UHGV virus genome: UHGV-1341087
Direction: 5' to 3' (one strand)
Length of the DNA: 8,274 nucleotides
DNA from: a virus
In this document: piece by piece, positions 1-8,274 of the stretch
Position numbering within the stretch: position 1 is the first letter of the stretch
How the letters are laid out: the number at the start of each line of letters is the position of its first letter
The notes under the pieces: model-generated
The model's database searches: none
The model's input: the letters and a program-made list of their open reading frames with translations, nothing else
Told to the model about the DNA's origin: nothing
Translations under genes and position numbers: made by a program

Positions 1-53
1 GCACCGTCATGGGGTGTCGGGGGTCGGAGGTTCAAATCCTCTCGTGCCGACCA
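1..53 (+). tRNA. proL: tRNA-Pro (anticodon GGG likely), 3' partial; the 5' ~24 nt lie upstream of the window
   Basis: T-arm GGAGG-TTCAAAT-CCTCT, acceptor 3' strand CGTGCCG, discriminator A and CCA end at 51-53; a GGG triplet sits in the apparent anticodon loop (11-13). From memory this matches the enterobacterial proL sequence; not verified by search. Confidence 0.78.
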
Positions 54-88
54 AATCGCTCATTATTAATTATCGTTTTTATGAAATA

Positions 89-122
89 AGCCCGCTAATT
101 CATTGAATAGCGGGTTTTTTTA
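89..122 (+). terminator. Rho-independent terminator downstream of the tRNA
   Basis: Stem AGCCCGCTA (89-97) pairing with TAGCGGGTT (108-116), 10-nt loop, followed by a T-run (115-121). Confidence 0.55.
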
Positions 123-173
123 TTGTTTTTAGTCATCGTTATTCGACGGTAACAGTGGTTTTCAGCCGTTTTT

Positions 174-230
174 TTTAGTTATATGTTTAGTTATACGGGC
201 TGGCGCATAGCTAAATCCGTATAACTAGAA
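174..230. repeat. Three copies of a 12-mer (TTTAGTTATACG-like) upstream of int; candidate integrase arm-type binding sites overlapping the int promoter region
   Basis: tttagttatatg (174-185) and tttagttatacg (186-197) in tandem, plus an inverted copy cgtataactaga (219-230), 30-90 bp upstream of the int start. Confidence 0.5.
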
Positions 231-259
231 CCTGTTTTTTCCCGTGGATTCATAAACGT

Positions 260-1504
260 ATGGCAAGAAAGGCGACCCCACTCACCACCACACAGATCAA
301 AGCAGCTAAACCAGCGGAAAAAGAATACACCTTACAGGATGGCGGCGGGCTTTTTCTCGTTATTAAGCCGTCTGGTTCGAAACTATGGCGATTCAACTAC
401 TATCGACCATCGAACAAAAAACGAACAATCATTAGTTTGGGATCGCTTGATGAAGTCTCCCTGGCTGATGCCAGAAAACGCCGTAGCGAGTACAGGACGT
501 TAATTGCGGCAGGAACCGACCCGCAGGAATACGAACGGCAAAAACTCGAAGCAGAGGCTCGACGACAGGGCAACACGTTCGAAAATGTGGCCGCATCGTG
601 GTACGAAATGAAAAAAAACCAGAATCTCGCCCACAATACGATCAAGGACATCTGGCGCTCGCTAGAGAAATATGTATTCCCGTATATCGGAAACACACCG
701 ATAGATACTCTCACCGCTCGCCGCTTTGTTGAGATACTCACACCCATCAAGGCGCGTGGCAACCTGGAAACACTGAAACGCGTTTTACAGCGCATCAATG
801 AAGTGATGGATTTTGCTGCCAACAGTGGACTGATTGACATCAACACCGCCGCGAACGTCCGCAAGGCATTCCCTTCCCCCACCAAAAAGCACATGCCAAC
901 TATTCGACCAGAGCAGTTGCCGCAACTTATGAACGATTTAACGATTGCCAGCATAGAACGACAAACCAAGTTGTTGATTGAGTGGCAGTTGTTAACCGCA
1001 ACCCGTCCAGCCGAAGCCTCCGCCGCACGGTGGGAAGAAATCAATCTTGAGGCGGCAACATGGACGATACCAGCCGGACGCATGAAGATGCGCCGTGACC
1101 ATGTGATCCCTCTTTGCACTCAGGCGATGGCAGTGCTTGAAGCCATGAAGCCGATTAGCGCACGAAGGGAGCATGTTTTCCCAAGTCTTAAAAATCCAGT
1201 GCAACCAATGAGCAGCCAGACAGCAAACGCAGCATTACGGCGAATGGGTTACGCTGGTGTGCTGGTATCTCACGGACTACGCGCAATATTCAGCACGGCG
1301 GCGAATGAGGAAGGATTTGAGCCTGACGTGATCGAAGCCGCACTAGCCCACGTAGACACAAACGAAGTTAGACGGGCATACAACCGAAGCAACTACCTGG
1401 AAAAACGTAAAGTGTTAATGTGCTGGTGGGGGAATTTTGTGGAAGCAGCCGCAACCGGAACAACCATCGCCAGCGGGCACAGGGGATTACGCGGAATAAA
1501 ATAA
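260..1504 (+). CDS. int: Tyrosine site-specific integrase, P4-type (N-terminal arm-binding domain plus catalytic domain)
   Basis: 414-aa ORF beside the tRNA 3' end. N-terminus (LTTTQIKAAKP..YTLQDGGGLFLVIKPSGSKLWRFNYY) is typical of P4-family integrases; C-terminus carries HGLRAIFST and RRAYNRSNYLEKR, consistent with the His/Arg/Tyr catalytic residues. Confidence 0.95.
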   Translation: MARKATPLTTTQIKAAKPAEKEYTLQDGGGLFLVIKPSGSKLWRFNYYRPSNKKRTIISLGSLDEVSLADARKRRSEYRTLIAAGTDPQEYERQKLEAEARRQGNTFENVAASWYEMKKNQNLAHNTIKDIWRSLEKYVFPYIGNTPIDTLTARRFVEILTPIKARGNLETLKRVLQRINEVMDFAANSGLIDINTAANVRKAFPSPTKKHMPTIRPEQLPQLMNDLTIASIERQTKLLIEWQLLTATRPAEASAARWEEINLEAATWTIPAGRMKMRRDHVIPLCTQAMAVLEAMKPISARREHVFPSLKNPVQPMSSQTANAALRRMGYAGVLVSHGLRAIFSTAANEEGFEPDVIEAALAHVDTNEVRRAYNRSNYLEKRKVLMCWWGNFVEAAATGTTIASGHRGLRGIK

Positions 1505-1530
1505 AATATTTAAAAATTATTGGTTCCTAA

Positions 1531-1700
1531 TTGACACCAACCAAGAGCCAATTTGGAGCCAATTTAAACCGCTTAGTTTTATGTTAGAAAAATACATTTA
1601 ACTTTCTAACGCCCATTATTTAAAGTTAGAAGAAAAATAATTAGTTTTTGCCAAATGGCTCTTGACTTACTTTTTTATAGATTTGTATTCTTTTTATATG
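1531..1700 (+). promoter_or_regulatory. int-alpA intergenic control region: tandem GAGCCAATTT repeats, GTTAGAA inverted/direct repeats, candidate sigma70 promoter
   Basis: TTGACA (1531-1536); gagccaattt twice (1545-1554, 1556-1565); GTTAGAAA (1583-1590) / TTTCTAAC (1603-1610) inverted repeat and a third GTTAGAAG (1624-1631); TTGACT (1662-1667) followed ~18 bp later by TATTCT (1686-1691). Promoter assignment is by eye only. Confidence 0.35.
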
Positions 1701-1763
1701 CTTCATGTGGTTACCGTCACTTTCATTCAAGAAGTGATATTTGCTGTCTTTAGGAGAAATAAG

Positions 1764-1955
1764 ATGAGAGCTATTCTTTTACGACCAGAGGTAAAGGCCT
1801 TGCTACGCATCAAGTCTGACTCGACCCTAACGGAGATGATTAACAAGGGCGGGTTCCCCAAAGGATTCCGTATCGGGCTGCGTCGCATTGGCTGGTATGA
1901 AGATGAGGTGCTCGCTTGGTTGAAAGAACGTGAGAGAGAAACTCGCGAAGCGTAA
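1764..1955 (+). CDS. alpA: AlpA/Vis-family small DNA-binding regulator (possible excisionase/transcriptional regulator)
   Basis: 63 aa from the ATG at 1764, preceded by an AGGAGA Shine-Dalgarno (1752-1757). Sequence (LLRPEVKALLRIKSDSTLTEMINKGGFPK..RRIGWYEDEVLAWL) fits the AlpA helix-turn-helix family. The longer 1662 start in the ORF track adds an implausible hydrophobic extension with no RBS. Confidence 0.85.
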   Translation: MRAILLRPEVKALLRIKSDSTLTEMINKGGFPKGFRIGLRRIGWYEDEVLAWLKERERETREA

Positions 1956-2014
1956 GCGTGATTAACGCTCGCCTGATTACTATCAAGCAACAAGACAATT
2001 AAGAGAGAACATTA

Positions 2015-2119
2015 TGAATACTGGCAAAAATGCCCAAACAGGGGCAGGTTTTCGTTCAACCATAAAAAATATGGCTGATGTTATTATTCAGTTCAAACCT
2101 TACGAAAGAATCAATTGAA
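2015..2119 (+). CDS. Possible 34-aa small ORF (MNTGKNAQTGAGFRSTIKNMADVIIQFKPYERIN)
   Basis: ATG at 2015 with AAGAGAG 6-12 nt upstream; below the ORF-track length cutoff; no recognisable family. May be non-coding leader instead. Confidence 0.25.
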
Positions 2120-2413
2120 CTAATCGCACTTCCGTTTTAAACGGAAACGTACAATCGCATAGCTTAAACGACAAAAGAAATATGCTTGTTACAAATAAAA
2201 TAAAGGCGACCGCAGAGGGCCGCCAGAGGACATGTATTAAACTTGAACGCATCGCTAACAATGCCACATTTGCGGCTGGTGGGCAAAGTAATTTGTATGG
2301 TGGACATACCATCAACACATCCGACCACATGAGCCGGAAAACGGGATATACTCACCGAATCCCTTATAAAACGGGGATCGGGATTACCACCCCGCTGAAG
2401 CAAAAGGCGATAC

Positions 2414-2436
2414 AGACGCGCCACGCGTCTTTTTTT
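2414..2436 (+). terminator. Strong rho-independent terminator inside the alpA-to-replication-operon leader
   Basis: Perfect 7-bp GC-rich stem AGACGCG (2414-2420) / CGCGTCT (2424-2430), loop CCA, then a run of T (2431-2436). Confidence 0.6.
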
Positions 2437-2600
2437 GTATCGACGCACACGCACACCTTATCAATGGTGGGCTGTATGGGGCTGACTTCGGTCAGGCTGG
2501 TTTCCTTTTGCGCCAGTTGTGGTAACCCTGTACAGTCCACCGCCAGCGAGCTTACCACCTCCTGCGGTGGGTATATCCCAACGCAAAAGGAGGCTGCCAA

Positions 2601-2789
2601 ATGGCTACTATCCCTGCCCTCGCACATACTCAGAACGCCTTTATCTGGCGCTTTATCATCGTTAATCCGAGTGATTCCCGCGTCGTTCACGTCGTGGCGT
2701 CAACCGAGCAGGAAGCGCGTAACCGTTGCCCGTCCGGCTGTGTTGCTGTATTCGCTGCCCGTATTCGTCAGGGGGTAAGTCATGCTTAA
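2601..2789 (+). CDS. Icd-like small protein (host cell division inhibitor Icd-like family, tentative)
   Basis: 62-aa ORF with a strong AAGGAGG RBS (2587-2593). The segment RVVHVVASTEQEARNRCPSGCVAVFAARIRQG resembles Icd-like proteins found in P4-like regions (from memory). Its stop overlaps the next ORF's start (ATGCTTAA). Confidence 0.65.
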   Translation: MATIPALAHTQNAFIWRFIIVNPSDSRVVHVVASTEQEARNRCPSGCVAVFAARIRQGVSHA

Positions 2790-2967
2790 GCGATTCCAGA
2801 TAACCGCACGCGCTGTAAATCATCAAGGCCACGTTATTGATATTCGGCAAAACGTGAACGCCACCTGCGTTAGTGCAGCTATAGAAATATTGAAAGAAGA
2901 GTTAATCGGCTGTGGGTTCACGCAGGTGATGATCCGTGTCGTAGTTGAAGTGTCGACTATTCATTAA
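2782..2967 (+). CDS. Hypothetical small protein, translationally coupled to the upstream ORF
   Basis: 61-aa ORF whose ATG lies 8 nt inside the end of the preceding ORF; same strand and operon context; no recognised motif. Confidence 0.55.
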   Translation: MLKRFQITARAVNHQGHVIDIRQNVNATCVSAAIEILKEELIGCGFTQVMIRVVVEVSTIH

Positions 2968-2996
2968 TTCAGCTTTAACAAAACGTAATTCGACAA

Positions 2997-3284
2997 ATGA
3001 AAGTAAAAAATTCTGGCTTTACTGCCAGCGGTAAAACTCGTCCTAAATTCATGCACGGCGATATTTACCGCGATAAATACGGCAGCACGGTAATGATTAA
3101 GGGCGTGAGTGAACGACGCATTACCTACCGCCGTGAAGGATACAAATATGACTGCGTGATGCCTGTTTATCAGTTCCAGCGTGATTTTACGCTGGTGGAT
3201 CATCGTGAAACCGTAAATCAGAACCGTGCAGCAAGATACATCCGCAAAATCCGCGAAATGATGGTTACTGGGGGCAAGAAATGA
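2997..3284 (+). CDS. Hypothetical basic protein, translationally coupled to the primase/helicase gene
   Basis: 95-aa ORF; its TGA stop overlaps the downstream ATG (ATGA at 3281-3284); weak RBS, so the exact start is uncertain (alternative ATGs at 3049 and 3093). Confidence 0.55.
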   Translation: MKVKNSGFTASGKTRPKFMHGDIYRDKYGSTVMIKGVSERRITYRREGYKYDCVMPVYQFQRDFTLVDHRETVNQNRAARYIRKIREMMVTGGKK

Positions 3285-5416
3285 AACGCGCACCGAACTT
3301 AAAGCACCAGCCAGCCGACAAAATGACGGAGGTTATCATTTTTGCGGGTAGTGATGCGTGGAGCCATGCGAAAGAGTGGCAGGAATGGGCAGGTAAGCAT
3401 ATTGCCGCCGACAATGTGCCGCCTGTCGTTCTGTCAGATGAACACCTGAAAGATATTACCGGTTATCAGATTATTGATGATAGCCGTCAGTGTGTGCGTG
3501 TTTACCGCGCAGGGCACATCACTGAACGTAGCCTTACACAGATCGTCACATTGCTGGCTGTGGCTGGCGTGAAGACCGTATACGAATATGCGGGAATAAC
3601 TGACACCAGCCCGGCGGATTTATCCGACCAGTTGCCTCGCCTCAAAGACGAATACGAGCGCGGGGAAAGTCTGGTGTTGCCCTTAAAGAAAAAAATCACA
3701 GAAAGCCAGGGCGATGATGAATTAAAACCCCGCGTTGAAAGTCGCGCCGATGGTGTTTTCTGGGTAACGCCCAAAGTTGACAAACAGTCAGGCGAAATTA
3801 TCCGGCCTGAGACGTGGTTATGTTCCCCGCTTGAACTACTGGGAACGGGAACAATCGGTAAAGAGCATTACCGCGTGATGCGCTGGAAAAAACCGGCAAA
3901 CCATGAATCCATCACAATGGCGATCCCGTGTGGTGGCATTGGCGACCGTGACGGCTGGCGGTTGCTTAAAGATCACGGCCTGAACGTGACAACAAACGGC
4001 AAATACAGGGCTATCCTGGCTGACTGGATGCAGTTAAGCGGAAACCATGAGGAATGGCAGTTAAGCACAACAACGGGGTGGCATTTTGGCGCGTACATCA
4101 TGCCGGACGGTTCAGTCATTGGTGAGTCTGAAAAACCGATCCTGTTTACCGGAAAAACGGCAGCCGTTAATGGTTATTCCGTAGCAGGAACGGCGGAGGG
4201 CTGGCGCGATACCGTGGCGCGACTGGCTGGTGGTAATCCGTCCATGATGCTGGGTGTGGCGGTATCGTTATCAGCACCATTAATCGGGCTGGTGGGCGCT
4301 GACGGCTTCGGGGTACATCTTTTCGAACAATCATCAGCAGGGAAAACCACCACACAGAACATAGCATCAAGTTTATGGGGAGAGCCGGACGCGCAACGGC
4401 TGACCTGGTACGGAACGGCGTTAGGTATCGCCAACGAGGCAGAGGCACACAACGACGGGCTGTTACCCCTAGATGAAATAGGCCAAGCCGGAAACGCACG
4501 GGAGGTGTCCACGTCGGCTTATACGCTGTTTAACGGTTCGGGGAAATTACAGGGGGCGAAGGACGGCGGCAACAGGGAGATCAAACACTGGCGCACGGTG
4601 GCAATCAGCACCGGAGAAATGGACGTTGAGACATTCCTCAAAACGGAGGGGATAAAAGTCAAAGCGGGGCAGCTTGTCCGCCTGCTTAACGTGCCGATGG
4701 AGAAGTCTACGCAGTATCACGAATACAGCACAGGAAAGGCGCACGCAGACGCGTTAAAAGCCGCCTGGACAGAAAACCACGGGGCGGCGGGTCGTGAATG
4801 GGTTAAATGGCTGGCAGCCCACCAGCAGGAGGCTAAGGACACGGTAAGGGCGTGTCGTGAACGGTGGCGCAACCTGATACCGGAGTGCTACGGCGAACAG
4901 GTTCATCGCGTGGGGGAACGATTCGCCATACTGGAGGCCGCGCTTGTGCTGTCCGGTCATGTTACGGGCTGGAATGTTCAGACGTGCCGTGATGCCATTC
5001 AGCATAACTTTAATGCCTGGGTGAAGGAGTTCGGCACGGGTAACAAGGAACACAGGCAGATTATTGAACAGGCAGAAGCATTTCTTACTGCCTACGGCAT
5101 GAGCAGGTTTGCGCCTGTCAATTATGACCCTGCAAGCCTGCCGATTTCAGAACTGTACGGCTACAGGGAAAGCGAGGGGCGTTACGGTGAGCCTGTTTTG
5201 TTTTACGTCCTGCCGGAGCCATTTAAATCGCATGTGGCGAAGGGATTTAACAAGGATGCCGTAGCAAGAGCCCTTCACGAAGCCGGAATGCTGAAAAAGC
5301 CAGCCAGCGGGGAAGGATGGCAAATCAGAACACCACGTCTTAAGCACATGAAGGGGGCACGACTAAGGGTGTACGGCCTTTTACTTGCACAGGATCATGA
5401 TGATGAAGGTGGTTAA
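3281..5416 (+). CDS. Replication protein, primase/helicase-like P-loop NTPase (toprim-like N-terminus plus DUF927-type P-loop domain; functional analogue of P4 alpha)
   Basis: 711-aa ORF. Walker A GADGFGVHLFEQSSAGKTTT (about nt 4325-4354) and Walker B-like LLPLDEIG (about 4459-4482); N-terminal EVIIFAGSDAW...IIDDSRQ resembles a degenerate toprim fold. Domain names are from recall, not from a search. Confidence 0.88.
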   Translation: MKRAPNLKHQPADKMTEVIIFAGSDAWSHAKEWQEWAGKHIAADNVPPVVLSDEHLKDITGYQIIDDSRQCVRVYRAGHITERSLTQIVTLLAVAGVKTVYEYAGITDTSPADLSDQLPRLKDEYERGESLVLPLKKKITESQGDDELKPRVESRADGVFWVTPKVDKQSGEIIRPETWLCSPLELLGTGTIGKEHYRVMRWKKPANHESITMAIPCGGIGDRDGWRLLKDHGLNVTTNGKYRAILADWMQLSGNHEEWQLSTTTGWHFGAYIMPDGSVIGESEKPILFTGKTAAVNGYSVAGTAEGWRDTVARLAGGNPSMMLGVAVSLSAPLIGLVGADGFGVHLFEQSSAGKTTTQNIASSLWGEPDAQRLTWYGTALGIANEAEAHNDGLLPLDEIGQAGNAREVSTSAYTLFNGSGKLQGAKDGGNREIKHWRTVAISTGEMDVETFLKTEGIKVKAGQLVRLLNVPMEKSTQYHEYSTGKAHADALKAAWTENHGAAGREWVKWLAAHQQEAKDTVRACRERWRNLIPECYGEQVHRVGERFAILEAALVLSGHVTGWNVQTCRDAIQHNFNAWVKEFGTGNKEHRQIIEQAEAFLTAYGMSRFAPVNYDPASLPISELYGYRESEGRYGEPVLFYVLPEPFKSHVAKGFNKDAVARALHEAGMLKKPASGEGWQIRTPRLKHMKGARLRVYGLLLAQDHDDEGG

Positions 5417-5441
5417 TCTCTCGCGTGTAGGTATAAAAACT

Positions 5442-5577
5442 CTTGTCCCACCTGTCCCAACCTGTGAAAAACACACATAACACACTGAATTATACTGGGT
5501 TACATCAGAAAAAGTGGGACAAGAGCGGGACAAGTTAAGGTGATTTTGGGACAAGTTAGGAGCATTTTGGGACAAGT
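5442..5577. repeat. Iteron-like array A: six copies of a TTGTCCCA(C) motif (2 direct, 4 inverted) around an AT-rich spacer
   Basis: cttgtcccac (5442-5451), ctgtcccaac (5452-5461); inverted gtgggacaag (5514-5523), cgggacaagt (5526-5535), tgggacaagt (5547-5556 and 5568-5577, 21 bp apart). Lies in the 235-bp gap between the primase and ssb genes. Confidence 0.6.
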
Positions 5578-5651
5578 CAGCAGGCGTTATTTTTACCTGG
5601 CTGGTGGACATTAAAAATCCAACCAACATTTAAAACCAGAGAGCAGACAAT

Positions 5652-6077
5652 ATGACGGCACAAATATCAGCTTACGGGCGGCTGGTGGCTGACCCGCAGT
5701 TAAAGACCACCAGCAAGGGAACACCAATGGCGCTGGTGAGTATGGCTGTTCCCCTTCCGTGCAGTCAGGCATATGACGGAACAGCGACGATGTGGTTATC
5801 CGTCCTGGCGTTTGGCAGACAGGCCGATGCGCTGGCAAAACACCAGAAAGGCGAACTGGTGAGCGTGGCGGGTAACATGCAGATAAGCCAGTGGACAGAC
5901 CAGAACGGGGAAATGCGACAGGGCTGGCAGGTCATCGCAGACAGCGTAATCAGTGCGCGAACCGTACGACCAGGAGGCAGGAAAGGACAGCAAGGGCAGG
6001 CTACTGACGCACTGAACAGGGCAAAGCAGCAGACGGGCCTGCAGGATGCCCCATATGAGGACGAAATACCATTTTAA
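5652..6077 (+). CDS. ssb: Single-stranded DNA-binding protein (SSB-like, short form)
   Basis: 141-aa ORF with an OB-fold-like N-terminal pattern (W..V..FG..A...KG..V...G....W.D..G..R) and a C-terminal acidic tail ending DAPYEDEIPF, matching the canonical SSB tail (...DDDIPF). Confidence 0.85.
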   Translation: MTAQISAYGRLVADPQLKTTSKGTPMALVSMAVPLPCSQAYDGTATMWLSVLAFGRQADALAKHQKGELVSVAGNMQISQWTDQNGEMRQGWQVIADSVISARTVRPGGRKGQQGQATDALNRAKQQTGLQDAPYEDEIPF

Positions 6078-6112
6078 CTGCCAGTGGATTCACTAACAGA
6101 GGCTAACAAATA

Positions 6113-6649
6113 ATGACTACACTGACTATTAGCAGAAAACCGAAAGGCATTTACGGCATACCACAGAAAAAGACACAGACGACACAGCAGCAGGATAAAA
6201 CCACATCAGCGCATAAAGTGATACCCGGCAATCAGAACGCACCGCAGAGCCGCAAACAGAAGCCCACAGGGGCGACACCGTGGCGGCATATGACCAAACG
6301 CCAGGGCAAAAACCGCAGGCGCGTTAACCGTCTTATTGAACTATGGCCTGAATTATTCAGCCTGGAATCACCGAAGCCGCTTAAGGTAGGGATATTTGAA
6401 GACCTGATACAGGATATTGCCGTCAGGGCGCTGGCTTTTGGGTCAGGGGCATTACGTGCGGCGCTAGCATCTTATGCTCATTCTCCGGGTTATTACCGTG
6501 CCTTAATGGCTGGTGGCGTGCGTTACGATCTGAATTGCCAGCCATGCGGTGAGGTGACACAACAGGAACAGCAGGACGCGGAAGCACGACTGATGGCACT
6601 GAAAGAGAAGCGCAAACGTAAGTCGAACAAGGAACAAGCTGGCGTATGA
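6113..6649 (+). CDS. FinO/ProQ-domain RNA chaperone-like protein
   Basis: 178-aa ORF with a K/R/Q-rich N-terminal extension followed by RVNRLIELWPELFSLESPKPLKVGIFEDL...YRALMAGGVRYDLNCQPCGEVTQQE, closely resembling the ProQ/FinO domain (compare ProQ ...KPLKIGIFQDL... RVDLDGNPCGEL...). Confidence 0.85.
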   Translation: MTTLTISRKPKGIYGIPQKKTQTTQQQDKTTSAHKVIPGNQNAPQSRKQKPTGATPWRHMTKRQGKNRRRVNRLIELWPELFSLESPKPLKVGIFEDLIQDIAVRALAFGSGALRAALASYAHSPGYYRALMAGGVRYDLNCQPCGEVTQQEQQDAEARLMALKEKRKRKSNKEQAGV

Positions 6650-6930
6650 GTATGATTCACGACAGTAAAGCGGAAGATCTGGAGGCTAAAGGCCTGTACC
6701 GGAGAGCGGCGACCCGATGGGCTGAGATCATGCAACAGGTGAACACCGATAAGGAGCGCGAACAGGCAGTAAAGCGTCGCGCGGAATGTATCCACAAGGC
6801 AGCACGTTCGCCCGTCATGCTGGATAATTTCGGGGGCTTGAGAGAGGCAGCAAACCGCACACAGGCGGATATGGGGATAGAAATCGCAAAATCTGTCTGG
6901 CGGAACTACCAGACAGACAAAGTTTTATAG
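6646..6930 (+). CDS. PerC-family-like small transcriptional regulator (tentative)
   Basis: 94-aa ORF whose start overlaps the finO-like stop (ATGA). The motif AEDLEAKGLYRRAATRWAEIM recalls PerC/Pch-type activators common in enterobacterial prophages; family assignment from memory only. Confidence 0.6.
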   Translation: MSMIHDSKAEDLEAKGLYRRAATRWAEIMQQVNTDKEREQAVKRRAECIHKAARSPVMLDNFGGLREAANRTQADMGIEIAKSVWRNYQTDKVL

Positions 6931-6994
6931 TGGCAGTTCTGCATTATTTTTGTGTTATTGAGTTGTAGAGCGTTTCAGGAGTTTTTTGAATCAC

Positions 6995-7195
6995 ATGAAC
7001 GTTTCGCTGGTGGATATTCTTGACAAGTTGCAGCCAGGCCGACGCGTGCCAGCTCGCCGCAGTGCCTGGCATCTTCCGTACATCGTCTTTCTCGAACGGC
7101 GCGGAAACGATTTGATTGCGTTGAATCCCGTCACAGAGGATAGCGTTACGCTATCTCCTGAGAGTCTACTAGCCACAGACTGGGAGTACTGCTAA
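6995..7195 (+). CDS. Hypothetical small protein
   Basis: 66 aa from the ATG at 6995 (CAGGAG 13-18 nt upstream); the ORF track starts at a TTG at 6986. No recognised family. Confidence 0.45.
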   Translation: MNVSLVDILDKLQPGRRVPARRSAWHLPYIVFLERRGNDLIALNPVTEDSVTLSPESLLATDWEYC

Positions 7196-7241
7196 ACACA
7201 AACGCATCGAGGGTGCTGGCGTGTTGCCAGCCCCACCCCCT

Positions 7242-7463
7242 CCGAAATGATCCCCCAAAAAGTGCAAAATGATCCCCCATTAACGAACAGAAAACAAACA
7301 AAGAGCAACAAATAAGCATTATTTACAATTCTTGACAAAAACACCCCCTATTTATAACCCTACCAAATTTAAAATTACATATACAAAACAATAAGTTACA
7401 AAATCAGCAACGGATCATTTCGGAAAAAACGGTTAGTCCCTTTTTCGAAAAGGGATCATTTTG
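7242..7463. repeat. Four GATC-containing 13-mer repeats (2 direct, 2 inverted) flanking a ~130-bp AT-rich tract; candidate origin/unwinding element or methylation-sensitive control region
   Basis: aaatgatccccca exact at 7245-7257 and 7267-7279; inverted partners cggatcatttcgg (7411-7423) and gggatcattttg (7452-7463); GATC at 7249, 7271, 7413 and 7454; near-palindrome tccctttttcgaaaaggga (7437-7455). Confidence 0.5.
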
Positions 7464-7727
7464 TTGCTTAAACTCATATGCGGATTACATATCAATACGC
7501 TAGTGATAGCCGTTCTGGAATGCCACAGAAACGCGCTGTAATCGATTCTGGCGCAATTAGCTGTGCTAGGTAATGATTTACCTATCTGGGGATGTTGCGC
7601 ACGTCTGGATTGCGTTACCACCGAAGATTGTGCGCGTATGGTGGCTGTTACGGTGGCCTCCCGACAACGCAAAATTGCGGCGGCACAGTCGGTTTACCGC
7701 GCTAACACGGCTTGATTCACTCGCTCG

Positions 7728-7853
7728 ACTTGTCCCACCTCCCCCCAACTTGTCCCAAAACAGCCTAGACTTGTCCCACCTTACCTAATTTATTTCTAAC
7801 AAAATCAATTTGTTAGGTGCTAGCGGGACAGGTGGGACGGGTGGGACGGGTGG
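7728..7853. repeat. Iteron-like array B: three direct ACTTGTCCCA copies at ~21-bp spacing, AT-rich spacer, then three inverted GGGAC(A/G)GGT copies at 9-bp periodicity
   Basis: acttgtccca at 7728-7737, 7748-7757 and 7769-7778; gggacaggt / gggacgggt / gggacgggt within 7825-7851. Same core motif and same direct-then-inverted polarity as array A. Confidence 0.6.
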
Positions 7854-8126
7854 TTTTGTATATATATACGAAAAATTGCATTCAGGAGGGGGGCGAAATT
7901 CCTGCAATCCATTACTTATGGAACTGTCCGCCCCGTCAAATTTTTACGCCCGCGCAATTAAAAAAATGCGTCACGCAGGTGGGCATGATGCCGATATGCT
8001 TGTCGGGTTCAGCTTTTTAAGGCGGCTGTAGATGTCAGGTTATCCGTGCTCATCCACCAGCCAGCTTCATAGCGGATAGCCGGAAAATGGTAACGGTTAA
8101 AGCTGTACATTTTTGCAGCAAATCAT

Positions 8127-8150
8127 TTTAGTTATACGTTTAGATATACG
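8127..8150. repeat. Second tandem pair of the TTTAGTTATACG 12-mer (candidate integrase arm-type sites near the distal end)
   Basis: tttagttatacg (8127-8138) and tttagatatacg (8139-8150); 22 of 24 positions identical to 174-197. Confidence 0.4.
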
Positions 8151-8226
8151 ATTTCAAAACTCAATCAATCTACATCTTTAAAATCATGCAGTTACAGAAT
8201 CAATTAAACTACTCTCGTGGAAAAAA

Positions 8227-8250
8227 CCAACCCTTACGGTTGGTTTTTTT
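8227..8250. terminator. Rho-independent terminator, possibly bidirectional
   Basis: A-run (8221-8226), stem CCAACC (8227-8232) / GGTTGG (8238-8243), loop CTTAC, then a T-run (8244-8250). Confidence 0.5.
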
Positions 8251-8274
8251 ATATCTGCAATTAATTCGATAAAC

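What the first reader, a model, noticed from the sequence alone, without database searches (positions are those of the whole stretch)
54..8274. Possibly a complete compact element: arm-type 12-mers at both ends, but no capsid-hijack genes and no clear right-hand att repeat
The 12-mer TTTAGTTATACG occurs three times just upstream of int (174-230) and as a tandem pair at 8127-8150, about 7.95 kb away. In P4, Int arm-type sites lie on both sides of the att core and overlap the int promoter, giving autoregulation. If 8127-8150 is the distal arm, the element would be only ~8.2 kb and would lack sid/psu/delta/ogr-type capsid-redirection genes, carrying ssb, finO-like and perC-like genes instead. That would make it either a different satellite/island type or a degraded one. 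Only an 8-bp match to the tRNA 3' end (CTCTCGTG, 8212-8219) is present near the right end, so the boundary is not established here.
Basis: partly seen in the sequence, partly recalled or inferred. Interest (0 to 1): 0.6.

Follow-up and report, generated by a model that had tools for sequence, protein, structure and literature searches.

The report
Compact phage satellite island at tRNA-Pro
The window holds one complete 8.2-kb mobile island of a known kind (a Gram-negative phage-inducible chromosomal island) inserted at the end of the proL tRNA gene. The repeated 12-mers at both ends are its integrase's arm binding sites, so the finding is real but mostly ordinary.

Summary
TTTAGTTATACG-type 12-mers occur six times at the two ends, against 0.6 matches expected by chance in the whole window.

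The element is complete. It is one 8,173-bp unit lying between proL (tRNA-Pro GGG) and the native proL terminator/yejO. This was shown by comparison with the empty K-12 site.

The weak right-hand repeat has a known cause. The host-side tRNA fragment in attR has lost 17 bp immediately after CTCTCGTG. Eight other Escherichia copies carry different deletions (2 to about 13 bp) at or next to the same point. This is the published "attR damage" of Gram-negative PICIs.

A metagenome contig carries the exact predicted attP junction with an intact 17-bp core.

The 12-mers sit at fixed offsets in seven tRNA-Pro elements (-85/-73 before the core; +135/+147 direct and about +165/+179 inverted after it). 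The motif changes with the integrase, as arm-type sites should.

Gene order is int, alpA, isrK/C4 RNA plus icd-like, DUF927 primase-helicase with two iteron clusters, ssb, ProQ/FinO, PerC. This matches the PICI family of EcCIED1a, not P4.

There is no capsid, terminase or Rpp gene. However, 7885-7964 resembles the cos site of phiP27/SfI-type HNH phages. I infer, without proof, packaging as 4-5-mers in full-size heads.

Verdict: a new member of a known kind.

The parts
1..53 (+). 3' part of tRNA-Pro(GGG) gene proL (the window starts inside the gene)
   Evidence: Rfam tRNA partial hit. Annotated tRNA-Pro at the same place in CM2 and K-12.
39..55 (+). attL core: CTCTCGTGCCGACCAAA, the 17-bp block shared by attB and attP
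   Evidence: K-12 empty site and window diverge after position 55. The same 17 bp are intact in the attP junction contig and in the Erwinia psidii attR.
85..120 (+). Hairpin plus T-run supplied by the element, likely replacement terminator for proL
   Evidence: Read directly from sequence (aagcccgctaattcattgaatagcgggttttttt). Its function is inferred.
174..229 (.). P' arm: direct pair of 12-mers (174-185, 186-197) and inverted pair (204-215, 218-229), 30-85 bp upstream of int
   Evidence: Offsets of +135/+147/+165/+179 from the core start are kept in E. albertii, Citrobacter and Erwinia elements; strain 042 keeps three of the four sites. The Citrobacter and Erwinia elements use a different motif.
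260..1504 (+). Tyrosine integrase with N-terminal arm-DNA-binding domain
   Evidence: Pfam Arm-DNA-bind_3, Phage_int_M, Phage_integrase. PHROG 1. dN/dS 0.05-0.11.
1662..1955 (+). Promoter-like site (1662-1691) and alpA (1764-1955), regulator/excision factor
   Evidence: Pfam Phage_AlpA. Promoter scan. dN/dS 0.03-0.04.
2182..2789 (+). P4/P1-type RNA immunity zone: Ash-family remnant ORF containing isrK-like RNA (2359-2435) and C4 antisense RNA (2460-2547), followed by icd-like gene (2601-2789)
   Evidence: Rfam C4 78.3 bits and isrK 55.1 bits, both above gathering score. Pfam Phage_ASH. RefSeq 'Icd-like' annotation.
2782..3284 (+). Two small genes: orf61 (2782-2967) and DUF4222 (2997-3284), which precedes the replication gene in all relatives
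3281..5416 (+). DUF927 primase-helicase (Pri-Rep)
   Evidence: Pfam DUF927. PHROG 1139 'DNA primase' 1.9e-166. PDB 8tch 'Pathogenicity island protein' 1.3e-14. dN/dS about 0.1.
5441..5577 (.). Iteron cluster 1 (GGGACAAGT-type repeats in opposed orientation around an AT-rich spacer), just after pri-rep: likely ori
   Evidence: 10 matches against 1.7 expected, in two clusters.
5652..6077 (+). Single-strand DNA-binding protein
   Evidence: Pfam SSB. dN/dS 0.13-0.24.
6113..6930 (+). Accessory genes: ProQ/FinO-domain RNA-binding protein (6113-6649) and PerC-family activator (6646-6930)
   Evidence: Pfam ProQ and PerC. Both are listed as PICI accessory genes in PMC6092414 and PMC13612085.
6986..7195 (+). 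orf69, small conserved ORF of unknown function
   Evidence: PHROG 7206. Intact in all copies compared.
7728..7852 (.). Iteron cluster 2: three GGGACAAGT on the minus strand, AT-rich spacer, then GGGACAGGT/GGGACGGGT repeats on the plus strand. A second ori-like or crr-like site.
7885..7964 (+). cos-like block; the equivalent of the 10-nt cohesive end is 7925-7934 (TGTCCGCCCC)
   Evidence: 79.5% identical to the annotated cos region of phage phiP27, which lies between the HNH and TerS genes. It differs by one base from the sequenced cohesive end of phage SfI, TGCCCGCCCC (PMC3636060). The same block lies near the right end of other satellites.
8127..8150 (+). P arm: direct pair of 12-mers
   Evidence: The pair starts 85 and 73 bp before the attR core in six of the seven tRNA-Pro elements compared; the E. 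albertii copy scored only the -85 site within 2 mismatches.
8212..8219 (+). attR core remnant CTCTCGTG. The next 17 bp of host sequence (CCGACCAAAAATCCCAA) are deleted.
8220..8274 (+). Host DNA: native proL terminator and the spacer before yejO. Not part of the element.
   Evidence: Identical to the K-12 empty site. yejO is annotated just beyond.

Best explanation
The window contains one complete integrated phage satellite of the Gram-negative PICI family. Its unit length is 8,173 bp (attL core start 39 to attR core start 8212). It sits in the 3' end of proL.

What is shown:
- The boundaries.
- An attP-type junction exists in nature.
- The six 12-mers form a conserved architecture that co-varies with the integrase.
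- The gene set.
- Purifying selection on int, alpA, the DUF927 gene and ssb.
- The attR deletion scars.

What is inferred (proposed life cycle):
1. The 12-mers are arm-type sites bound by the N-terminal Arm-DNA-binding domain of Int. Because they lie 30-85 bp upstream of int, they may also let Int regulate its own promoter.
2. A helper phage switches on alpA.
3. AlpA and Int excise a circle.
4. The DUF927 primase-helicase fires the GGGACAAGT iteron origin(s), aided by the element's own SSB.
5. The resulting concatemers are cut at the cos-like block (7885-7964) by the HNH-TerS-TerL terminase of a phiP27/SfV/SfI-type helper.
6. With no capsid-size or Rpp gene, they are packed as 4-5 copies into full-size heads. 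Five copies make 40.9 kb, against 42.6 kb for phiP27.
7. After injection, Int integrates the circle at proL. The element supplies a new tRNA 3' end and terminator. The displaced host 3' fragment suffers a deletion that starts right after CTCTCGTG.

The isrK/C4 RNA pair plus icd-like gene is a P4/P1-type RNA immunity module. ProQ/FinO and PerC are accessory regulators.
For: Boundaries:
- Empty site compared with occupied sites.
- Metagenome contig ERZ1034969 NODE_11656 joins window 6934-8219 (95.2%) to window 31-829 (97.2%) through an intact CTCTCGTGCCGACCAAA. A reconstructed attP aligns without gaps over 333 nt.

Arm sites:
- Enrichment of the motif.
- Identical offsets in seven tRNA-Pro elements: TTTAGTTATACG in Escherichia, TTTGGGACTAGA in Citrobacter and Erwinia, whose Int is 75-76% identical.
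- Doubled 12-bp motifs upstream of int across the clade, recurring 5-11 kb downstream.
- Arm-DNA-bind_3 domain in Int.

Family:
- Reference PICIs EcCIED1a, SdCI1012, SbCISb277, EcCI11368, EcCI11128 and EcCIATCC25922 share the proL site, the core, the doubled motif and the attR deletions (PMC10111431, supplementary file 6).
- Same gene order as EcCIED1a-like islands in NCTC9112 and Nissle.
- The Pri-Rep is homologous to a staphylococcal pathogenicity-island protein.

Activity:
- dN/dS is 0.03-0.24 for int, alpA, the DUF927 gene and ssb.
- 53 of 5,426 complete E. coli genomes carry the element, as does E. albertii.
- Scar lengths differ between copies.

cos:
-, and PMC3636060.
- Partial matches to the P27 packaging module, mostly at 60-90% identity, occur in 1,477 of 5,426 genomes.
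- Multimer packaging in full-size heads was proposed for EcCICFT073 (PMC6092414) and shown for PICMI (PMC10803314).
Against: - No experiment shows excision, replication or packaging for this element.
- The cos block is only 79.5% identical to phiP27 over 80 bp. Its 10-nt cohesive-end equivalent differs at 1-2 positions from the phage versions, and its flanks are satellite-specific.
- Most carrier genomes show no second cos-type match, so they hold no resident helper of this type.
- The attP-type contig could come from a tandem chromosomal array rather than a circle or concatemer.
- In this copy attR has lost 17 bp. That may include part of the crossover region, so this particular copy may excise poorly or leave a broken tRNA.
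- One sister copy has a stop codon in the DUF927 gene.
Confidence: 0.7

Rival explanations
1. It is a P4-family satellite that has lost its capsid-redirection genes (sid, psu, delta, ogr).
For: - The integrase has the same Pfam architecture as P4-type integrases and sits next to a tRNA.
- There is a C4/CI-type RNA with an isrK/seqA-like partner inside an Ash-family ORF, as in P4 (PMC10111431 section 20).
- There are two separated iteron clusters, reminiscent of P4 ori and crr (the P4 comparison is from my own knowledge).
Against: - No P2/P4 cos within 3 mismatches.
- No sid/psu/delta/ogr hits.
- The replication protein is DUF927, not annotated as a P4 alpha type.
- The same att site, core, arm motif and gene order are shared with the named PICIs EcCIED1a and SdCI1012.
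- The right-hand region shows no gene remnants of a lost late module. It is conserved non-coding DNA.
Confidence: 0.05
2. It is a decaying, immobile remnant that is only inherited vertically. The end repeats are relics.
For: - attR is damaged in all nine Escherichia copies examined, and in this window by 17 bp.
- One copy has a premature stop in the DUF927 gene.
- IS insertions are seen in two copies (H4 and H6).
- There are no packaging genes.
Against: - Strong purifying selection on int, alpA, the DUF927 gene and ssb.
- Different scars in near-identical copies imply repeated integrations.
- The element is present in two species, E. coli and E. albertii.
- An intact attP-type junction was recovered from a metagenome.
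- The arms, cos block and iterons are conserved.
Confidence: 0.1
3. It is a real mobile island, but it does not use the cos-like block or phiP27/SfV-type helpers. It could move with another helper, by generalised transduction, or as an integrative mobilisable element riding conjugation.
For: - ssb and FinO-like genes are typical of plasmid leading regions (my own knowledge).
- Enterobacter PICIs with ProQ or PerC carry VirB/VirD4 genes (PMC13612085).
- A relative (L013) carries ProQ-PerC followed by very large unknown genes.
- Carriers usually lack a resident cos-type helper.
Against: - No relaxase, oriT-associated or T4SS gene in the window.
- The cos-like block is the best conserved non-coding stretch. 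It is shared by several otherwise different satellites at the same right-end position and by 39-45 kb phage contigs.
- One of these satellites carries an HK97-type capsid/protease fusion.
Confidence: 0.15

Closest known systems
Gram-negative PICIs at tRNA-Pro proL: EcCIED1a, SdCI1012, SbCISb277, EcCI11368/11128, EcCIATCC25922 (Fillol-Salom 2018, PMC6092414; att data in PMC10111431)
   Same: - Same attB (proL 3' end), same core CTCTCGTG..., and the same doubled TTTAGTTATACG arm motif 85/73 bp before the core.
- The same attR deletion phenomenon.
- Same order: int, alpA, ash/icd zone, DUF4222, primase, then ssb or PerC.
- int is 78% identical at DNA level.
   Different: - Those islands are about 11.3 kb. 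They carry a late zone (major capsid, decoration protein, TerS-like gene) and a 582-aa 'DNA primase family' Rep.
- This one is 8.2 kb. It has a 711-aa DUF927 Rep, a ProQ/FinO gene, no late genes, and a phiP27-type cos-like block.
- Its attR sequence is not among the eight tRNA-Pro reference PICIs listed.
EcCICFT073 (cos-type Gram-negative PICI with Rpp; PMC6092414, PMC6739421)
   Same: - int-alpA-pri core.
- AlpA as inducer.
- No TerS.
- cos-dependent packaging, proposed as multimers in full-size heads.
   Different: - EcCICFT073 uses lambda/phi80-type cosN and needs RppA (144 aa) to retarget phage TerS.
- Here there is no lambda cosN and no ORF that could be an Rpp.
- The cos-like block also resembles the phage site on both sides of the cohesive-end position.
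Satellite phage P4
   Same: - tRNA-targeting integrase with arm sites on both sides of the core.
- CI/C4-type RNA immunity within an Ash/Eta-type ORF.
- Carries the helper's cos.
- Two iteron regions.
   Different: - No sid, psu, delta or ogr.
- No P2-type cos.
- Different replication protein family.
PICMI (Vibrionaceae minimalist islands, PMC10803314)
   Same: - Small genome with an int, alpA, primase core.
- Large non-coding regions.
- No capsid remodelling genes.
- Packaged as concatemers in full-size heads (8 copies shown there).
   Different: - PICMIs sit next to fis in Vibrionaceae, are about 6 kb, and use virulent helpers.
- This island is in a tRNA gene of Escherichia.
- It has an RNA immunity module and ssb/ProQ/PerC.
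cos-type SaPIs such as SaPIbov5 (Quiles-Puchalt 2014, cited in PMC6092414; PMC5052747)
   Same: Exploits HNH-dependent cos phages by carrying a copy of the helper's cos site rather than a terminase gene.
   Different: Gram-positive lineage with an unrelated regulatory scheme (Stl repressor). The likeness is one of mechanism only.

Membership tests
Gram-negative PICI (Fillol-Salom 2018) | Specific attachment site, with the integrase gene at one end reading inward | tested here: met
   proL 3' end. int at 260-1504 reads into the element. The boundaries are proven by the empty site and the attP contig.
Gram-negative PICI (Fillol-Salom 2018) | alpA regulator downstream of int, same orientation | tested here: met
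   Pfam Phage_AlpA at 1764-1955.
Gram-negative PICI (Fillol-Salom 2018) | pri/rep gene followed by an iteron origin | tested here: met
   DUF927 primase-helicase. Iterons at 5441-5577 immediately downstream.
Gram-negative PICI (Fillol-Salom 2018) | No phage structural, tail or lysis genes | tested here: met
   Pfam and PHROGs scans of all ORFs.
Gram-negative PICI (Fillol-Salom 2018) | Own packaging determinant: terS, or cos plus Rpp | tested here: inconclusive
   A cos-like block is present. There is no terS and no Rpp-like ORF. Function is untested.
Gram-negative PICI (Fillol-Salom 2018) | Helper-phage-dependent induction, replication, packaging and high-frequency transfer | not testable with these tools
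   Only indirect evidence: an attP-type junction in a metagenome and varied integration scars.
P4-like satellite | Capsid and late-gene control genes sid, psu, delta (and ogr/epsilon) | tested here: not met
   No hits in Pfam or PHROGs.
P4-like satellite | P2-type 19-nt cos | tested here: not met
   No match within 3 mismatches. The query sequence was taken from my own memory of the P2/P4 cos.
P4-like satellite | CI/C4-type immunity RNA | tested here: met
   Rfam C4 78.3 bits and isrK 55.1 bits. Some PICIs share this feature (PMC10111431).
cf-PICI | Own capsid, portal, protease, HNH, terS and terL genes | tested here: not met
   None present.
PICMI | Integration next to fis in Vibrionaceae; int-(iolg)-alpA-prim core of about 6 kb | tested here: not met
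   Integrated in proL of Escherichia. The core trio is present, but the site and host differ.

The most novel reading that the evidence does not exclude
This is the type example of an undescribed minimalist branch of enterobacterial PICIs. These would parasitise HNH-dependent cos phages (phiP27/SfV/SfI type) with nothing but a cos mimic: no Rpp, TerS or capsid gene, and packaging as 4-5-mers. A six-site arm architecture would be common to the whole PICI integrase clade. An element-encoded ProQ/FinO protein would possibly serve the C4/isrK RNA switch.
Probability: 0.4. Interest if true: 0.5.

Novelty: new member of a known kind. Interest (0 to 1): 0.38.

Why it matters
- It turns an ambiguous "island with a fuzzy right end" into a precisely bounded satellite. 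It also shows why the att repeat looks degraded: the integrase family leaves deletion scars in the displaced tRNA fragment.
- It gives a clean comparative case for arm-type sites, with fixed geometry and a motif that changes with the integrase. The spacing is about the same as reported for helper-embedded PICIs (PMC10111431). This suggests the architecture is general to the clade rather than special to them.
- If the cos inference is right, E. coli has very small satellites that ride HNH-cos phages without any interference or capsid genes. They would carry a PerC-type virulence regulator and an RNA chaperone between strains, including the EAEC prototype strain 042.

Tried and rejected
- **tRNA scan.** ARAGORN found no tRNA in the window because only the 3' half is present. 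Identity was settled from annotated genomes instead.
- **Whole-element search against phage records.** It gave only the isrK/C4 region, shared with Stx phages. There is no packaged copy of the element in the phage collection.
- **IMG/VR relatives of the DUF927 protein.** Those inspected, including the two metagenome-derived 8-kb contigs, show no terminal repeats, and most of the hits come from isolate genomes. They say nothing about packaging.
- **attP junction in IMG/VR.** Not found.
- **Lambda cosN and P2/P4 cos.** Absent.
- **Defence genes.** PADLOC found none.
- **Small ORFs 7563-7715 and 7810-8031.** Rejected as genes. They have no family hits, and both have frame-breaking indels in sister copies.
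- **Possible sRNA at 7255-7470.** Only a modest folding z-score of -2.58, driven by one long-range inverted repeat. Left open.
- **EcCI042 of Fillol-Salom 2018.** This is a different locus (marker in gene 1749), so it is not a prior description of this element, even though strain 042 carries this element at proL.

Full report
**Observation.** TTTAGTTATACG with up to two mismatches occurs seven times in the window, against 0.63 expected (0 of 200 shuffles reached 7). Six copies lie at the ends:
- a direct pair at 174-197,
- an inverted pair at 204-229, just upstream of int,
- a direct pair at 8127-8150.

CTCTCGTG is at 39-46, inside the tRNA 3' end, and again at 8212-8219. Only two copies are exact, and two of the int-proximal copies are inverted.

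**Where the window lies and where the element ends.**
- The first 53 bases are the 3' part of proL, tRNA-Pro(GGG).
- In E. coli CM2 the same DNA (99.8% identical) lies between yejM-proL and yejO. yejO starts about 40 bp beyond the window's end.
- K-12 has the empty site...CTCTCGTGCCGACCAAAAATCCCAAGAAAAAACCAACCCTTACGG....
- The window follows K-12 up to position 55 and again from 8220 (GAAAAAACCAACCC...).
- The insert is therefore bounded by the core CTCTCGTGCCGACCAAA at 39-55 and its remnant at 8212-8219. The unit length is 8,173 bp.

**Why the right-hand repeat is so short.**
- In the window the host-side sequence after CTCTCGTG has lost 17 bp (CCGACCAAAAATCCCAA).
- Eight other Escherichia copies, about 95-99.8% identical to the window, each have a deletion at or next to the same point but of a different length. 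Among six E. coli copies they are 2, 2, 4, 5, 5 and about 9 bp. Strain 042 and E. albertii show further variants, about 3 and about 13 bp.
[quoted passage not shown] They saw it only for PICIs, not prophages, and suggested it disables the tRNA on excision (PMC10111431, sections 19 and 22).
- Their attR alignment lists eight reference PICIs at tRNA-Pro: EcCIED1a, SdCI1012, SbCISb277, EcCI11368, EcCI11128, EcCIATCC25922 and two Pectobacterium islands. All show the same CTCT-CGTG core and scars.
- A relative in Erwinia psidii has an undamaged attR, CTCTCGTGCCGACCAAA.

**Direct evidence for the joined ends.**
- I searched for the junction that only a circle, a concatemer or a tandem array would have (AAACTACTCTCGTGCCGACCAAAT). 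It found one metagenome contig, ERZ1034969 NODE_11656, 2,136 bp.
- The contig runs from the equivalent of window 6934-8219 (95.2% identical) straight into window 31-829 (97.2%) through an intact 17-bp core.
- An attP reconstructed from the window aligns to it without gaps over 333 nt.
- This confirms both boundaries. It also shows that attP carries the full core, so the deletions arise on the chromosomal side.

**The 12-mers behave as arm-type sites.** I compared seven tRNA-Pro elements: the window, E. albertii, E. coli 042, two EcCIED1a-like islands, Citrobacter sp. FP75 and Erwinia psidii.
- The distal pair starts 85 and 73 bp before the attR core in six of the seven. In the E. albertii copy only the -85 site was within two mismatches.
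- The int-side sites start 135 and 147 bp after the attL core start (146/158 in the EcCIED1a type).
- These are followed by an inverted pair at about +165/+179 (176/190 in the EcCIED1a type); in strain 042 only the +179 copy was within two mismatches.
- The geometry is fixed while the motif changes. It is TTTAGTTATACG in Escherichia, and TTTGGGACTAGA in the two elements whose integrases are 75-76% identical to this one.
- Doubled 12-bp motifs also precede int in Pasteurellaceae, Colwellia and Paraglaciecola relatives. They recur 5-11 kb downstream where the contig allows.
- Int has an Arm-DNA-bind_3 domain.
- Binding itself is inferred, as is autoregulation of int from sites 30-85 bp upstream of its start codon.
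- The spacing is close to that described for the different doubled motif of helper-embedded PICIs: 81 bp upstream and 132 bp downstream of the attP centre. Here it is about 81 and 139 bp if the centre is placed at the scar site.

**Gene content.** All genes read rightward.
- Integration: int (260-1504) and alpA (1764-1955).
- RNA immunity zone: an Ash-family remnant ORF holds an isrK-like RNA (2359-2435) and a C4 antisense RNA (2460-2547). Both score above Rfam gathering thresholds. An icd-like gene follows.
- Replication: orf61, DUF4222 and a 711-aa DUF927 primase-helicase (3281-5416). The latter matches PHROG 1139 'DNA primase' and PDB 8tch 'Pathogenicity island protein'.
- Iterons: GGGACAAGT iterons form two clusters at 5441-5577 and 7728-7852 (10 matches against 1.7 expected).
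- Accessory genes: ssb, a ProQ/FinO-domain protein, a PerC-family activator and orf69.
- This is the four-zone PICI layout (integration, Bro/immunity RNA, replication, late) of PMC10111431, but with an almost empty late zone.
- EcCIED1a-like islands at the same site in NCTC9112 and Nissle 1917 are about 11.3 kb. They add a major capsid gene, a decoration protein gene and a TerS-like gene.
- PerC and ProQ are already noted as PICI accessory genes (PMC6092414; PMC13612085).
- No PADLOC defence hit was found.

**The right-hand 1.2 kb is non-coding but conserved.**
- The two small ORFs there have no family hits. Both (7563-7715 and 7810-8031) have frame-breaking gaps in sister copies.
- Within this region, 7885-7964 is 79.5% identical (E = 1e-7 against 2.3 Gb) to the annotated cos region of Stx2e phage phiP27. 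That region lies between the phage's HNH endonuclease and P27-family TerS genes.
- The 10-nt cohesive-end position reads CGCCCGCCCC in phiP27 and TGTCCGCCCC here (7925-7934). The following 30 bp are nearly identical.
- The related phage SfI has a sequenced 10-nt end, TGCCCGCCCC. It shares its packaging genes with SfV, phiP27, ST64B and e14 (PMC3636060).
- The same block lies near the right end of other, otherwise different satellites. One, near clpS, has an HK97-type protease/capsid fusion. Another, near dinD, has ProQ-PerC and large unknown genes.
- The 20-mer CCGCCCCGTCAAATTTTTAC is shared exactly by 39-45 kb phage contigs and by 5-13 kb contigs, several of which carry the satellite-type flanks.
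- There is no lambda cosN, no P2/P4 cos, no TerS and no Rpp-sized ORF.

**Is it alive?**
- Pairwise dN/dS against five sister copies is 0.05-0.11 for int, about 0.03 for alpA, about 0.1 for the DUF927 gene and 0.13-0.24 for ssb. ProQ and PerC show few changes, with ratios of about 0.3-0.7.
- 53 of 5,426 complete E. coli genomes hold at least 80% of the window, from many hosts and countries.
- E. albertii NBRC 107761 has the element at 95.2% identity.
- The EAEC prototype strain 042 carries it at proL.
- Together with the different scars and the attP contig, this argues for a functioning, repeatedly integrating element. Individual copies can still be crippled: there is a stop codon in the DUF927 gene of LH10-b-1, IS insertions in two copies and the 17-bp scar here.

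**Most likely mechanism.**

Shown:
- boundaries,
- attP-type junction,
- arm architecture,
- modules,
- selection.

Inferred, by analogy with EcCICFT073, where AlpA is necessary and sufficient for excision and replication and is switched on by the helper (PMC6092414):
1. A helper activates alpA.
2. Int plus AlpA excise the circle using the six arm sites.
3. The DUF927 protein replicates it from the iterons.
4. The concatemer is cut at the cos-like block by an HNH-TerS-TerL terminase of a phiP27/SfV/SfI-type phage.
5. Without capsid-size genes, four or five units fill a normal head. Five units are 40.9 kb, 96% of phiP27's 42.6 kb. Four units are 32.7 kb, 88% of SfV's 37.1 kb.

Multimer packaging was proposed for EcCICFT073 and demonstrated for PICMI.

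Partial matches to the P27 packaging module, mostly at 60-90% identity, occur in 1,477 of 5,426 E. coli genomes. Full P27-type modules occur in 22. Most carriers show no second cos-type match, so a helper would usually have to come from outside.

**Comparison and verdict.**
- The element passes the sequence-testable features of Gram-negative PICIs and shares its integration module with named members of that family.
- It fails the defining features of P4-like satellites, cf-PICIs and PICMIs.
- It works like a cos-type SaPI or a PICMI in carrying no packaging or capsid gene.
- Its exact attR is not among the eight reference tRNA-Pro PICIs, and I found no paper describing it.
- It would nevertheless be called a PICI by current criteria.
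- I rate it a new member of a known kind with modest interest.

The parts that go slightly beyond the literature are two. One is the clade-wide six-site arm geometry. The other is the cos mimic of HNH-type phages in an island with no late genes. The second is not proven.

Noticed in passing
window 2303-2567: The isrK/C4 RNA region is 86% identical to a stretch inside 'regulatory protein/antirepressor' genes of 61 phage records, mostly Stx1/Stx2-converting phages. The satellite may therefore share, or cross-talk with, the RNA immunity module of those phages.
   Followed up: no
window 5441-5577 and 7728-7852: There are two separate iteron clusters 2.2 kb apart. Each has opposed repeats around an AT-rich spacer, and the second lies next to the cos-like block. 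This is reminiscent of P4 ori plus crr. Which one is the origin is unknown.
   Followed up: partly
window 7246-7463: GATC-containing repeats: AATGATCCCCC occurs twice (7246-7279), with inverted partners CGGATCATTTC and GGGATCATTTTG (7411-7463). They bracket about 150 nt of A-rich DNA and a terminator-like hairpin at 7436-7456. The fold z-score is -2.58. This could be a regulator or Dam/SeqA site, or a small RNA.
   Followed up: partly
whole window compared with L004, L005, L008, L015, L169: Synonymous divergence is uneven along the element. It is 0.10-0.20 in int and alpA but 0.00-0.07 from ssb to orf69. The 042 copy has a much more divergent DUF927 gene (88%, with gaps). This points to mosaic exchange of modules between satellites.
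   Followed up: no
L013 1-10100 (E. coli UTAK-6, near dinD): Another island has ProQ/FinO, PerC (frameshifted) and the same cos-like block at its right end. It also carries three very large hypothetical genes (about 600-820 aa). These are a candidate cargo system, or T4SS-like genes as reported for Enterobacter PICIs.
   Followed up: no
L018 9931-15118 and L040 8035-13211: In an Enterobacteriaceae strain and in Ursidibacter, the two arm-motif pairs are only about 5.2 kb apart. This implies even smaller relatives of this island type.
   Followed up: no
L026, L031-L038, L044, L053, L066, L067 (Pasteurellaceae): The same doubled TTTAGTTATACG motif precedes integrases that are only 43-46% identical to this one. 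Some of these sit next to tRNA-Met, -Ser or -Ala genes. Closer relatives (75-76% identical) at tRNA-Pro use another motif. Arm specificity therefore does not track overall integrase similarity.
   Followed up: partly
L170 (metagenome contig ERZ1034969 NODE_11656), first ~55 nt in the orientation of the window: In the attP-junction contig, the sequence upstream of the orf69 region differs from the window's PerC end. That relative therefore has a different gene in place of PerC.
   Followed up: no
window 85-120: The element brings its own hairpin plus T-run right after the rebuilt tRNA 3' end, replacing the native proL terminator. The native terminator is displaced to 8221-8250.
   Followed up: no
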